Shown one piece after another: positions 9,518 to 53,376 of a stretch of 61,363 nucleotides of DNA (its first letter is position 1; the number at the start of each line of letters is the position of its first letter). This DNA comes from Escherichia coli. GTDB taxonomy: Bacteria; Pseudomonadota; Gammaproteobacteria; Enterobacterales; Enterobacteriaceae. The notes beneath the pieces are model-generated. The model was not told where the DNA came from, did no database searches, and saw nothing but the letters and a program-made list of their open reading frames with translations. The stretch is from the NCBI RefSeq assembly GCF_003334785.1, contig NZ_QOWV01000020.1; one strand, written 5' to 3'. The position numbers and the translations under genes were made by a program.

Positions 9518-9593
9518 TGGCTCCTCTGACTGGACTCGAACCAGTGACATACGGATTAACAGTCCGCCGTTCTACCGACTGAACTACAGAGGA
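9518..9593 (-). tRNA. asnV: tRNA-Asn (GTT)
   Basis: Reverse complement of the 76-nt tRNA-Asn gene (TCCTCTGTAGTTCAGTCGGTAGAACGGCGGACTGTTAATCCGTATGTCACTGGTTCGAGTCCAGTCAGAGGAGCCA). Copy name assigned by synteny next to ldtA and nac. Confidence 0.95.
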
Positions 9594-9919
9594 ATCGTGT
9601 GAACGGGGCGCATATTAATGGCAGTGCATGGTGATGTCAAAGGGTGAAATGCATTTTTTTGTTTGTTTGCTGCCAATTTCAACAAAGTGGTGAGCTTTCA
9701 ATCTTATTGGGTAATGAACCATCGTGGTGCATACCCTCCTTTTATAGGGCAGGTGAATGCGACTGCAGATAAAAAGAGCCAATGACGAATCTATCATAAT
9801 CTCTTATTTGACAGTTGGTTAGCTTGCGCATCAACGCCAAAATAGAACTGGCAAGCATCTTGCAATCTGGTTGTAAGTAATGGCGGCACTTGGGCCGACT
9901 CTTAAAAACCGGAGGCAAC

Positions 9920-10837
9920 ATGAACTTCAGACGCCTGAAATACTTCGTAAAAATTGTAGATATTGGTAGCCTGACCCAGGCTGCTGAAGTATTGCATATC
10001 GCACAACCAGCGCTCAGCCAGCAGGTTGCCACACTGGAAGGTGAGTTTAATCAACAACTTTTGATTCGCACAAAACGGGGCGTTACGCCAACTGACGCCG
10101 GAAAAATTCTCTATACCCATGCGCGGGCCATTTTACGTCAGTGTGAGCAGGCCCAACTGGCGGTGCATAACGTTGGTCAGGCATTATCGGGGCAAGTCTC
10201 GATTGGCTTTGCGCCAGGAACCGCTGCGTCATCCATCACCATGCCCTTATTACAGGCGGTTCGCGCTGAATTCCCGGAGGTCGTTATCTATCTTCATGAA
10301 AATAGCGGTGCAGTGCTTAACGAAAAACTGATAAATCACCAACTCGATATGGCGGTGATTTATGAGCATTCCCCTGTGGCTGGTGTATCCAGTCAGGCTT
10401 TACTGAAAGAAGATCTTTTCCTGGTAGGGACTCAAGATTGTCCGGGGCAAAGCGTTGATGTTAATGCTATTGCGCAAATGAACCTCTTTCTTCCCAGTGA
10501 TTACAGTGCTGTTAGACTTCGTGTTGATGAGGCTTTTTCCCTACGGCGACTCACGGCAAAAGTCATTGGTGAAATTGAGTCTATTGCCACGCTTACCGCA
10601 GCGATTGCCAGCGGCATGGGCGTTGCAGTATTACCCGAATCGGCCGCGCGTTCGTTATGTGGCGCAGTAAACGGGTGGATGTCACGCATTACCACACCTT
10701 CCATGAGTCTCTCTTTGTCATTAAATTTACCCGCCAGAGCGAACTTATCACCACAGGCACAGGCAGTGAAAGAGTTGTTAATGTCAGTGATGAGTTCTCC
10801 AGTGATGGAAAAAAGGCAGTGGCAATTGGTGAGCTAA
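9920..10837 (+). CDS. nac: LysR-family nitrogen assimilation control regulator
   Basis: MNFRRLKYFVKIVDIGSLTQAAEVLHIAQPALSQQV... LysR HTH; about 305 aa from ATG 9920 (ORF track start 9890). Confidence 0.88.
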   Translation: MNFRRLKYFVKIVDIGSLTQAAEVLHIAQPALSQQVATLEGEFNQQLLIRTKRGVTPTDAGKILYTHARAILRQCEQAQLAVHNVGQALSGQVSIGFAPGTAASSITMPLLQAVRAEFPEVVIYLHENSGAVLNEKLINHQLDMAVIYEHSPVAGVSSQALLKEDLFLVGTQDCPGQSVDVNAIAQMNLFLPSDYSAVRLRVDEAFSLRRLTAKVIGEIESIATLTAAIASGMGVAVLPESAARSLCGAVNGWMSRITTPSMSLSLSLNLPARANLSPQAQAVKELLMSVMSSPVMEKRQWQLVS

Positions 10838-10938
10838 GCGTTATATCGGGATGGAATAAGATGCGGGTTTTTATTATTTGTTATGCCGGGCATTAGACTT
10901 TAACAATAACGGAAAATCTGAACTGCCCGGAGTTTACC

Positions 10939-11889
10939 GTGAATTTCCAACAACTAAAGATAATCCGCGAGGCTGCACGTCAGGATTACAACCTGACAGA
11001 GGTTGCGAATATGCTTTTTACCTCACAGTCCGGCGTCAGCCGTCATATTCGGGAACTGGAGGATGAACTTGGCATCGAAATATTTGTTCGACGAGGTAAG
11101 CGACTGCTGGGCATGACTGAACCGGGCAAAGCATTACTGGTCATTGCAGAACGTATTCTGAATGAAGCCAGTAATGTTCGTCGGCTTGCAGACCTGTTTA
11201 CCAACGATACGTCTGGCGTTCTCACTATTGCAACGACGCATACTCAGGCACGTTATAGTTTGCCAGAGGTCATTAAATCTTTTCGCGAACTTTTCCCGGA
11301 GGTTCGGCTCGAGCTAATCCAGGGGACGCCACAGGAAATTGCGACGTTGTTGCATAATGGTGAAGCTGATATTGGTATCGCCAGCGAGCGTTTGAGTAAT
11401 GACCCGCAGCTCGTCGCCTTCCCGTGGTTTCGTTGGCACCATAGTTTGCTTGTTCCACTCGATCATCCCTTGACGCAAATTACACCATTGACGCTGGAAT
11501 CAATAGCGAAGTGGCCGTTAATCACTTACCGACAGGGGATTACGGGGCGCTCACGTATTGATGACGCATTTGCCCGCAAAGGTTTGCTGGCAGATATTGT
11601 ATTAAGTGCGCAGGATTCTGATGTCATTAAAACCTATGTTGCTCTTGGGCTTGGGATCGGAATAGTTGCCGAACAATCCAGCGGTGAACAAGAGGAAAAG
11701 AATTTAATCCGCCTGGATACGCGGCATCTTTTTGATGCTAATACTGTCTGGTTGGGACTGAAGCGAGGACAACTTCAGCGTAACTATGTCTGGCGCTTTC
11801 TGGAACTTTGTAATGCAGGGCTTTCAGTTGAGGATATCAAGCGGCAGGTGATGGAAAACAGTGAAGAGGAAATTGATTATCAGATATAG
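10939..11889 (+). CDS. cbl: LysR-family regulator of sulfonate-sulfur utilisation
   Basis: 316 aa, MNFQQLKIIREAARQDYNLTEVANMLFTSQSGVSRHIRELE... (CysB-like), adjacent to nac. Confidence 0.88.
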   Translation: MNFQQLKIIREAARQDYNLTEVANMLFTSQSGVSRHIRELEDELGIEIFVRRGKRLLGMTEPGKALLVIAERILNEASNVRRLADLFTNDTSGVLTIATTHTQARYSLPEVIKSFRELFPEVRLELIQGTPQEIATLLHNGEADIGIASERLSNDPQLVAFPWFRWHHSLLVPLDHPLTQITPLTLESIAKWPLITYRQGITGRSRIDDAFARKGLLADIVLSAQDSDVIKTYVALGLGIGIVAEQSSGEQEEKNLIRLDTRHLFDANTVWLGLKRGQLQRNYVWRFLELCNAGLSVEDIKRQVMENSEEEIDYQI

Positions 11890-52030: not shown

Positions 52031-52223
52031 GAGTAACTGTTTTCTAACCTCACAACCAGACTGTCCAAAGACAATTGAGTCGCTCTTTGATTCCTCTGTG
52101 ACTCTATTGTCTTCTTTTGGGATAAAATAGGTGTTTTTCGTCATGAAGTTGATAAAAGTCTATATAGAACCACCTCCTGTGGAGGTGGTGGTAATTTGCC
52201 AGAGTGAGGGATTCGTTAGTATA

Positions 52224-53139
52224 CTATGGGATAAACTTATTTTTACCAATTGTATAAGGCGGTGCATAAGATTCTCGGCATGCTTCCAGATAATCCGACC
52301 ACCACTGCATCATCGCTTTGCGGGCTTCTAGGTGCTCTGCCTTATGAATATAAGCCATGCGCACGGTATTGCGCTCCTGATGACTCATCTGGCGTTCTAC
52401 TGCGTCCTTTGCCCATAAACCCGATTCCATCAGCGCACTGCATGCCATTGCCCGGAAGCCGTGACCGCAGATATCCTTTTTCGTGTCGTAACCCATCACC
52501 CGCAGTGCCTTATTGACCGTGTTTTCACACATTGGCTTATACGGGTTATGGTCGCCGGGGAAGATCAGTTCATTATTACCGGTGATATCCTTAATCTGTT
52601 TCAGAATGGCGATGGACTGTTCTGAGAGGGGGACGATATGCGGCATTCGCATTTTTGCCCCGCGGCCGGAATAACGCACGCCAATAATGGGTTCTCGCGT
52701 CGCGGGTATCGTCCAGACTCGGTTTGTGAAATCAATCTCTGACCAGCGGGCGAAACGCAGTTCACTGGAGCGAATGAACACATGCAGCATCAGCAGAACG
52801 GCATGCCGGGTCAGTTCACGGCCCTGATGATATGCCCCAATACGTTCAAGCAGTTCAGGCAGCCGCTCCAGCGGCAGGGCAGGATAGTGCCGTCTGACAG
52901 GAGGTGTGGTCACGCCGCCAAGGTTTGCTGCAGGGTTCGTATCGATTAACTCCTGATGGACCGCATGGCGCATTATGTTACTCAGGTGCTGCCGTGTGCG
53001 GGACGCAACCTCCAGCTTTGAGATACCAGTGGCGGGAGCCACCCGGCTTGACCAGCAGATACAGACCGTGAGAATCGGAGACTTTAAAGGGTTTATCAGA
53101 AGGCTTGAGGGTGCGGATTTTTGCGTCGGTAAGGAACAT
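52224..53139 (-). pseudogene. int: P4-type tyrosine integrase of the HPI, inactivated by internal deletion / frameshift
   Basis: ATG at 53139 gives MFLTDAKIRTLKPSDKPFKVSDSHGLYLLVKPGGSRHWYLK, then a stop. The rest reads in another frame (ORF 52224..53150) from ...TTPPVRRHYPALPLERLPELL through the catalytic region (...HGFRA..., ...RMAYIHK...). Span is about 916 nt against roughly 1.26 kb for intact P4-type integrases. Confidence 0.8.
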
Positions 53140-53300
53140 ATGGGGGTCACTCCATTATCGAACTAACCTGATCCCAGATTTGACCACCAATTTTTCCCGA
53201 TGCGTAGGGTAAAATCAAAATGCACCGAGAAGAGTTTTCACACTAACCTGTTGAATCAACATCAGATAAAGATTTGCAAGGATGCATGAAAACAGAAAAT

Positions 53301-53376
53301 TGGCTCCTCTGACTGGACTCGAACCAGTGACATACGGATTAACAGTCCGCCGTTCTACCGACTGAACTACAGAGGA
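53301..53376 (-). tRNA. asnT: tRNA-Asn (GTT), HPI attachment site
   Basis: Identical 76-nt tRNA-Asn; its 3' end faces the int remnant; mtfA and tRNA-Ser lie on the other side as at asnT. Confidence 0.95.

What the first reader, a model, noticed from the sequence alone, without database searches (positions are those of the whole stretch)
9518..53376. Four identical tRNA-Asn genes within 44 kb, only one occupied by an island
Copies at 9518, 11927 and 53301 are on the minus strand and the copy at 13751 is on the plus strand. The three minus-strand copies are 76-nt direct repeats that could drive deletion of intervening DNA, and the oppositely oriented pair could drive inversion. All are potential P4-type integration sites, yet only the asnT copy carries an island.
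Basis: partly seen in the sequence, partly recalled or inferred. Interest (0 to 1): 0.4.

Follow-up and report, generated by a model that had tools for sequence, protein, structure and literature searches.

The report
E. coli tRNA-Asn island hotspot
The four identical tRNA-Asn genes are the well-known asnT/asnW/asnU/asnV cluster of Escherichia coli. It is a documented docking and rearrangement hotspot for genomic islands, and here it carries the common, immobilised yersiniabactin island at asnT, so the finding is real but ordinary.

Summary
Four 76-nt tRNA-Asn(GTT) genes lie at the stated coordinates and strands, and all four are identical.

The window is E. coli chromosome. The copies are asnV (9518), asnU (11927), asnW (13751) and asnT (53301). 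The island at asnT (22190-53300) is the Yersinia High-Pathogenicity Island (HPI) in its common, fixed E. coli form:
- It has no right-hand 17-bp repeat.
- Its right end is deleted into yeeJ.
- Its P4-like integrase carries a 347-bp internal deletion.

The other three sites are empty and collinear with K-12.

| Configuration | Genomes |
|---|---|
| HPI-type integrase at asnT | 2,136 |
| HPI-type integrase at asnV | 74 |
| HPI-type integrase at asnU | 34 |
| HPI-type integrase at the asnW flank | 3 |
| asnV x asnW inversion | 266 |
| asnU x asnW inversion | 34 |
| asnT x asnW inversion | 1 |
| asnV x asnU deletion (loses nac and cbl) | 35 |
| Deletions reaching asnT | 0 |

Other islands fill every site in some strains. 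The two HPI copies I opened away from asnT, one at asnV and one at asnU, are conjugative-element forms with an intact integrase.

Nearly all of this is published (Schubert 2009; Lam 2018; Auvray 2021). I did not find the small yeeO inversion or the nac-cbl deletion in the literature searched, but both are expected outcomes of repeats. Verdict: already known, low interest.

The parts
9518..9593 (-). asnV, tRNA-Asn(GTT). The 3' side (ldtA side) is unoccupied.
   Evidence: Named by collinearity with K-12.
11927..12002 (-). asnU, tRNA-Asn(GTT). The 3' side (cbl side) is unoccupied.
13751..13826 (+). asnW, tRNA-Asn(GTT). This is the only inverted copy. The 3' side (yeeN side) is unoccupied.
53301..53376 (-). 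asnT, tRNA-Asn(GTT). The 3' side is occupied by the HPI. Its last 16 nt plus one following base (53300-53316) form the 17-bp attachment core (attL).
22190..53300 (-). High-Pathogenicity Island, common immobile E. coli form. From the asnT side it carries the integrase remnant, ybtS, ybtX, ybtQ, ybtP, ybtA, irp2, irp1, ybtU, ybtT, ybtE and fyuA, then a stub of the next conjugative-element ORF. G+C is about 57-62% across the island core (roughly 24-51 kb), against about 41-49% in the flanking chromosome.
   Evidence: Annotation of the 99.98%-identical record. G+C profile. Homology to the conjugative form runs down to 22189.
52224..53139 (-). Remnant of the P4-like integrase. It has a clean 347-bp internal deletion, with the junction between 53016 and 53017. 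The deletion removes nt 124-470 (codons 42-157) and shifts the frame.
   Evidence: ORFs of 53 aa and 308 aa. Alignment to the intact 1,263-nt gene of L010. Domains of the intact protein. The C-terminal fragment matches only profile positions 159-396.
22189..22195 (.). Truncated right junction of the island. Conjugative-element sequence ends at 22189. yeeJ sequence resumes at 22195, at about nt 219 of K-12 yeeJ. No attR repeat is present.
   Evidence: [quoted passage not shown]
19742..22509 (-). yeeJ remnant with further internal deletions. It ends in a chimeric ORF (21799-22509) that fuses the island stub to yeeJ.
9594..11926 (+). The nac-cbl segment between the direct repeats asnV and asnU. 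It is lost in 35 genomes.
12003..13750 (+). The yeeO segment between the inverted repeats asnU and asnW. It is inverted in 34 genomes. The whole 9594-13750 segment is inverted in 266 genomes.

Best explanation
This is the E. coli asnT-asnW-asnU-asnV locus. Four old paralogous tRNA-Asn genes, each with its own promoter-like upstream motifs and diverged flanks, are kept identical.

Their 3' ends form the attachment site for P4-like integrases of conjugative elements and genomic islands. Any copy can therefore receive an island, and in the species all four do.

In this strain only asnT is filled, because its island is the common E. coli form of the Yersinia HPI.
- It descends from a conjugative element that entered at asnT.
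- It then lost its right part in one deletion reaching 218 nt into yeeJ. That part held the excisionase, type IV secretion genes, mobilisation genes and the right-hand repeat.
- It has since spread between strains by homologous recombination of its flanks.
- Here its integrase is also destroyed by a 347-bp deletion.

The island can therefore neither excise nor move to the three intact sites. Those sites are simply unused here.

The 81-90-nt perfect repeats also act as substrates for occasional recombination. In the species this has produced inversions between asnW and each of the other copies, and deletion between asnV and asnU.

Shown: identities, coordinates, absence of the right repeat, the integrase deletion, and population counts of each configuration.
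Inferred: the order of historical events, and RecA-type recombination as the usual mechanism of the rearrangements.
For: - Four identical tRNA genes.
- The window is 99.98% identical to E. coli LR-64-2, and the copies are named by collinearity with K-12.
- No fifth copy of the 17-bp core exists in the window.
- Island-to-yeeJ junction at 22189/22195.
- 347-bp integrase deletion. The intact protein has Arm-binding, central and catalytic domains.
- Conjugative forms with an intact integrase and virB/mobC modules sit at asnV and asnU in other strains, with asnT empty.
- Counts of integrase position: 2,136 / 74 / 34 / 3.
- Other islands with both repeats intact sit at asnU.
- Rearrangement junctions fall exactly at the tRNA: 266, 34, 1 and 35 genomes. 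They were verified in annotated records.
- Rearranged loci that show no integrase-bearing island in the stretch viewed (AH65, Esc20) favour general recombination.
- Literature: PMC2606025, PMC6202445, PMC8209727.
Against: - The copies are identical, so the crossover point cannot be placed inside the 81-90-nt block. Integrase-mediated exchange at the 3' core would give the same products.
- Counts are genomes, not independent events. Most of the 266 inversions probably descend from few events in phylogroup B2 lineages.
- Integrase-position counts rest on 80% coverage of a 1,476-nt junction query. Only one asnV, one asnU and one asnW-flank example were opened and checked to carry ybt genes.
- In the conjugative form at asnV that I opened (SCEC020023), no right repeat was found within about 83 kb. 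Intactness of those elements is therefore not shown.
Confidence: 0.9

Rival explanations
1. The inversions and deletions are made by P4-like integrases acting on the attachment cores of two asn genes (attL or attB x attB), not by general homologous recombination across the whole tRNA.
For: - The commonest inversion (asnV x asnW, 266 genomes) is seen next to the pks island, whose integrase gene is annotated without defects, in Nissle 1917. Auvray et al. propose that it accompanied pks insertion.
- ET5 combines a conjugative element with the asnT x asnW inversion.
- Two of the three genomes with HPI integrase at the asnW flank also carry the yeeO inversion.
Against: - AH65 (yeeO inversion) and Esc20 (nac-cbl deletion) show no integrase-bearing island in the stretch viewed.
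- SE15 has the inverted segment without pks.
- A perfect 81-90-nt repeat exceeds the roughly 25-30-nt minimum for RecA-dependent exchange in E. coli. This figure is from my own knowledge (Shen and Huang 1986) and was not checked here.
- For this window the only local integrase is dead.
Confidence: 0.3
2. asnT is occupied because the HPI integrase prefers asnT over the other copies, through flank-dependent site preference.
For: 2,136 of 2,247 junctions with HPI-type integrase (95%) are at asnT.
Against: - The attachment core and the whole tRNA are identical in all four copies.
- The examples opened away from asnT, one at asnV, one at asnU and one at the asnW flank, all carry an integrase gene annotated as intact. 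Every listed hit at asnV and asnU shows the full-length integrase spacing.
- In Klebsiella all four sites are used (PMC6202445).
Confidence: 0.05
3. The structural variants in public genomes are assembly artefacts at a repeated tRNA.
For: Repeats can mislead assemblers. Variant counts are small for three of the four classes.
Against: - The repeats are only 81-90 nt, well below read length for any long-read or Sanger-finished assembly.
- The junctions are contiguous single alignments at 97-98% identity across 1,476 nt.
- They recur in many independent projects, including Nissle 1917. SE15 and UM146 carry related but differently structured rearrangements.
- The 4.3-kb inversion was reported independently.
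Confidence: 0.03

Closest known systems
Common ('normal type') E. coli High-Pathogenicity Island at asnT (Schubert et al. 2009, PMC2606025)
   Same: - Inserted 3' of asnT.
- Complete ybt/irp/fyuA core.
- P4-like integrase next to the tRNA.
- Deletion of the fyuA-side border that removes the direct repeat and part of the neighbouring backbone.
   Different: This copy also has a 347-bp deletion inside the integrase. About 2 of 12 sampled asnT-HPI genomes share it.
ICEEc1 of ECOR31 and ICEKp of Klebsiella pneumoniae (PMC2606025; Lam et al. 2018, PMC6202445)
   Same: The ybt core is the same and the integrase is of the same type: 99.7% and 98.7% nucleotide identity on either side of the 347-bp deletion. 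The 17-bp attachment core in tRNA-Asn is also the same. The family can use any of the clustered asn genes.
   Different: The window's island lacks the excisionase/AlpA, virB type IV secretion, mobC and cargo modules and the right repeat. These modules are present in E. coli copies at asnV and asnU.
pks (colibactin) island at asnW/asnU/asnV with inversion of the 4,309-bp asnW-asnU-asnV region (Auvray et al. 2021, PMC8209727)
   Same: It uses the same asn cluster. The asnV x asnW inversion is the same structure I counted in 266 genomes.
   Different: The window has no pks island, and its asnV-asnU-asnW segment is in the K-12 orientation.
HPI of Yersinia pseudotuberculosis, which can sit in any of three asn tRNA genes (cited in PMC8209727 and PMC2606025)
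   Same: Same island core and same target gene family.
   Different: The Yersinia element keeps both repeats and can excise. The window's element cannot.

Membership tests
tRNA-Asn(GUU) gene | Cloverleaf recognised by tRNA finders, with anticodon GTT | tested here: met
   ARAGORN finds 4 genes with anticodon GTT at position 34. Rfam RF00005 scores 72.6 bits against a gathering score of 29.
tRNA-Asn(GUU) gene | Orthology with K-12 asnT, asnW, asnU and asnV by flanking genes | tested here: met
   The flanks mtfA, yeeN/yeeO, cbl/yeeO and ldtA/nac are collinear with NC_000913.3.
Common immobile E. coli HPI | Complete yersiniabactin locus (ybtS to fyuA) | tested here: met
   All 11 ybt/irp/fyuA genes are annotated in the 99.98%-identical record.
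Common immobile E. coli HPI | Inserted at the 3' end of asnT with the integrase adjacent | tested here: met
   The integrase remnant at 52224-53139 lies 161 nt from asnT.
Common immobile E. coli HPI | Right (fyuA-side) border deleted, with loss of the direct repeat and part of the adjoining chromosome | tested here: met
   There is no fifth 17-mer even with 3 mismatches allowed. The junction lies at 22189/22195, inside yeeJ.
Active integrative conjugative element (ICEEc1/ICEKp type) | Intact P4-like integrase (Arm-binding, central and catalytic domains) | tested here: not met
   A 347-bp deletion removes codons 42-157 and shifts the frame.
Active integrative conjugative element (ICEEc1/ICEKp type) | Excisionase, type IV secretion and mobilisation module downstream of fyuA | tested here: not met
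   Homology to the conjugative form stops at 22189, 1 kb beyond fyuA. The next sequence is yeeJ (compare).
Active integrative conjugative element (ICEEc1/ICEKp type) | 17-bp direct repeats at both ends | tested here: not met
   Only the left copy, inside asnT, is present.
Repeat-mediated rearrangement hotspot | Variant genomes whose junctions fall exactly at the repeats | tested here: met
   Chimeric-junction queries found 266, 34, 1 and 35 genomes. Gene order was verified.
Repeat-mediated rearrangement hotspot | Isoforms arise within the source strain's own population | not testable with these tools
   This needs long reads or junction PCR on the strain itself.

The most novel reading that the evidence does not exclude
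The small asn-flanked rearrangements, namely the yeeO inversion between asnU and asnW and the nac-cbl deletion between asnV and asnU, may be recurrent rather than rare accidents. They might be reversible or selected, for example by changing which tRNA promoter reads into a neighbouring integrase or island, or by removing the nitrogen and sulphur regulators Nac and Cbl. I did not find either in the literature searched. The nac-cbl deletion occurs on at least two different allelic backgrounds.
Probability: 0.1. Interest if true: 0.4.

Novelty: already known. Interest (0 to 1): 0.15.

Why it matters
The locus matters to medical microbiology. The asn cluster is where E. coli and Klebsiella acquire yersiniabactin and colibactin, so its occupancy and orientation track the evolution of virulence.

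For this window nothing new follows. The layout, the reason the island is stuck at asnT, the use of other asn copies by mobile forms, and the large inversion are all published.

The added value here is a set of species-wide tallies from 5,426 complete genomes. They give the position of the HPI integrase at each asn copy. They also include two minor variants, the yeeO inversion and the nac-cbl deletion, that I did not find in the literature searched. These could serve as lineage markers.

Tried and rejected
- **Degenerate right-hand repeat.** I searched the window for the 17-bp core with up to 3 mismatches and found none beyond the four tRNAs. An excisable island is therefore rejected.
- **Deletions joining asnT to asnU or asnV.** I looked for cbl-asn-mtfA and ldtA-asn-mtfA junctions and found none in 5,426 genomes. 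The query assumed empty 3' sites, so deletions in genomes with islands there would be missed.
- **Hidden island remnants at asnV, asnU or asnW.** Rejected by gap-free collinearity with K-12.
- **HPI outside asnT as relocated copies of the truncated island.** Rejected for the two examples I opened beyond fyuA, one at asnV and one at asnU: both are the long conjugative form, and their integrase genes are annotated as intact.
- **Right repeat of the conjugative form at asnV in SCEC020023.** Not found within about 83 kb. The region is scrambled by insertion sequences, and cobUST-ldtA is missing.
- **Multi-part junction queries.** These classified variants but could not give totals, so dedicated two-part queries were needed.
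- **Search cap.** Exact counts of empty asnT, of total ybt-positive genomes and of per-site occupancy by non-HPI islands were not obtained. One search gives only estimates for those sites.
- **tRNA copy-number paper.** PMC4539685 had nothing relevant.
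Full report
**1. Observation**

ARAGORN finds tRNA-Asn(GTT) genes at 9518-9593 (-), 11927-12002 (-), 13751-13826 (+) and 53301-53376 (-), plus tRNA-Ser(CGA) at 54368-54457. Rfam's tRNA model scores each Asn copy at 72.6 bits.

An alignment of the four copies with 50-nt flanks shows all 76 nt identical. Perfect identity between pairs extends slightly into the flanks and gives blocks of 81-90 nt. Outside these blocks the flanks differ, apart from a conserved TTGACA and TAANAT pair upstream of each gene. This fits four independently transcribed old paralogues.

**2. What the locus is**

The window matches E. coli chromosomes throughout. It is 99.98% identical to strain LR-64-2 from position 397 onwards.

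By collinearity with K-12 MG1655 the copies are asnV (9518), asnU (11927), asnW (13751) and asnT (53301). The K-12 neighbours are all present: cobUST-ldtA, nac-cbl, yeeO, yeeN-amn-shiA and mtfA-serU.

Window 5695-19732 aligns to K-12 in one 14,038-column block at 97.5% identity, so asnV, asnU and asnW carry nothing extra.

Between asnT and yeeJ lies a block whose core is about 57-62% G+C. It carries ybtS, ybtX, ybtQ, ybtP, ybtA, irp2, irp1, ybtU, ybtT, ybtE and fyuA. This is the yersiniabactin High-Pathogenicity Island, or HPI.

**3. State of the island in this strain**

- The 17-bp attachment core CCAGTCAGAGGAGCCAA occurs only in the four tRNA genes, even with three mismatches allowed. There is no right-hand repeat.
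- I compared the window with a conjugative HPI from another strain (L018). Island homology runs from asnT down to 22189. K-12 yeeJ homology resumes at 22195, about 219 nt into that gene.
- One deletion therefore removed the rest of the element, its right repeat, the asnT-yeeJ spacer and the start of yeeJ. A chimeric ORF remains at 21799-22509.
- The integrase next to asnT is broken. Relative to the intact 1,263-nt gene it lacks 347 bp, with the junction between 53016 and 53017. This removes codons 42-157 and shifts the frame.
- The intact protein has the Arm-DNA-binding, central and catalytic domains of P4-like integrases. The window's long ORF retains only the C-terminal part.

The island can neither excise nor re-integrate.

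**4.

I built junction queries consisting of a 3' flank, the tRNA and a 5' flank. I searched them against 5,426 complete E. coli genomes and counted genomes in which one place covers at least 80% of the query.

| Configuration | Junction or query | Genomes |
|---|---|---|
| asnV, asnU and asnW all empty and in K-12 order | window 7000-16500 | 4,263 (78.6%) |
| HPI-type integrase at asnT | int-asn-mtfA | 2,136 |
| HPI-type integrase at asnV | int-asn-nac | 74 |
| HPI-type integrase at asnU | int-asn-yeeO 5' | 34 |
| HPI-type integrase at the asnW 5' flank | int-asn-yeeO 3' | 3 |
| asnV x asnW inversion (4.3 kb) | yeeN-asn-nac | 266 |
| asnU x asnW inversion (yeeO) | yeeN-asn-yeeO 5' | 34 |
| asnT x asnW inversion | yeeN-asn-mtfA | 1 (ET5) |
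| asnV x asnU deletion (nac and cbl lost) | ldtA-asn-yeeO 5' | 35 |
| Deletion from asnT to asnU or asnV | cbl- or ldtA-asn-mtfA | 0 |

*Integration sites*

- The asnV and asnU examples I opened are long conjugative forms. They carry an intact integrase, AlpA, virB type IV secretion genes and mobC, and asnT is empty in those strains.
- Unrelated islands also use the cluster:
  - a 15-kb island with integrases and both repeats at asnU;
  - a MobQ/PilV element at asnU;
  - a sugar-transport block at asnV together with an integrase, nuclease-helicase and Wadjet island at asnW;
  - a small island at asnT.
- All four copies are therefore real integration sites.

*Rearrangements*

- In ET5 a conjugative element's right repeat now lies inverted next to yeeJ, as the asnT x asnW inversion predicts.
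- The nac-cbl deletion occurs on at least two allelic backgrounds.
- More complex relics exist. UM146 has five asn copies with a yeeO fragment. SE15 has the inverted segment without pks.

**5. Mechanism**

Shown: the junctions of every variant fall exactly at the tRNA, and flanks are exchanged as whole units.

Inferred: general homologous recombination across the 81-90-nt perfect blocks is the simplest cause. It fits best where no integrase-bearing island appears in the stretch viewed, as in AH65 and Esc20.

Integrase-mediated exchange at the 17-bp core would give identical products and remains possible. It is most plausible for the pks-linked inversion. The identical copies leave no markers to tell the two apart.

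In this window the local integrase is dead, so only general recombination or a foreign integrase could act.

**6. Comparison with what is known**

- Schubert et al. 2009 report that in all but one HPI-positive ECOR strain the island is at asnT. It carries a unique deletion of the fyuA-side border that removes the direct repeat and affects the adjacent chromosome.
- The same paper reports that ECOR31 carries a conjugative form at asnV, that this form integrates at each asn copy after transfer, and that the fixed form spread by recA-dependent recombination of its flanks.
- Lam et al. 2018 show that ICEKp uses all four clustered tRNA-Asn genes in Klebsiella.
- Auvray et al. 2021 describe pks at asnW, asnU or asnV and an inversion of the 4,309-bp asnW-asnU-asnV region.

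The window meets every defining feature of the common immobile E. coli HPI. It fails every feature of an active conjugative element (see the membership table).

**7. Novelty and verdict**

I did not find the yeeO inversion or the nac-cbl deletion in the literature searched. Both are expected by-products of repeats.

Counts are genomes, not events. The integrase-position counts were spot-checked in only a few records.

Interest is low.

Noticed in passing
window 1-396: The first 396 bases do not match LR-64-2, which is otherwise 99.98% identical. Other strains matching this stretch list an ISL3-family transposase among the features under the match. It looks like the end of an insertion sequence interrupting the phosphotriesterase-related gene at 396/397.
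   Followed up: partly
window 1-5700: An accessory block sits beside cobU. It holds a phosphotriesterase-related protein, a DMT transporter pseudogene, a glutamine amidotransferase, a PfkB kinase pseudogene, and IS66 and IS4 fragments. At this position K-12 has IS5 and the CP4-44 prophage, and other strains have the pdu operon.
   Followed up: no
window 54905-55126: yodB (cytochrome b561) is missing. About 995 bp of K-12 sequence between zinT and serU is replaced by 222 bp.
   Followed up: no
window 60466-61363: hchA is truncated at its N-terminus by an IS1 element that runs off the end of the window.
   Followed up: no
window 18529-19581: A family 9 glycosyltransferase gene is annotated as intact here. 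K-12 has the pseudogene yeeL at this position.
   Followed up: no
L012 (UM146) 6285-7261; L013 (SE15) 6013-7110: UM146 has five asn copies, with a 276-nt yeeO 3' fragment between two of them next to pks. SE15 has the asnV-asnW segment inverted with a 922-nt yeeO fragment and no pks. Auvray et al. reported the inverted orientation only in pks-positive configuration 1A strains of their collection.
   Followed up: partly
L021 (O157:H7 WS4202) 4632-9102: An IS1203-bounded deletion from inside yeeJ removes asnW, asnU, asnV and their neighbours. The similarity search found tRNA-Asn sequence at only two places in this genome, and asnT is the only copy at this locus, so most asn copies are dispensable in that strain.
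   Followed up: partly
L020 and L018 (SCEC020023): The conjugative HPI at asnV abuts a scrambled region holding a retron Eco8 effector, ABC-three-component defence genes, insertion sequences and CP4-44-like genes. cobUST-ldtA is absent, and no right repeat was found.
   Followed up: partly
L004 25313-38065; L006 24524-44367: Islands at asnU and asnW carry candidate anti-phage cargo. This includes an AAA ATPase with an HNH endonuclease, an ATP-dependent nuclease with a UvrD helicase, and Wadjet JetD with a MukB-like protein. The asn cluster therefore also serves as a defence-island site.
   Followed up: no
window 53016/53017: About 2 of 12 evenly sampled asnT-HPI genomes share this exact 347-bp integrase deletion (single-piece matches). 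It may mark a sublineage of the island.
   Followed up: partly
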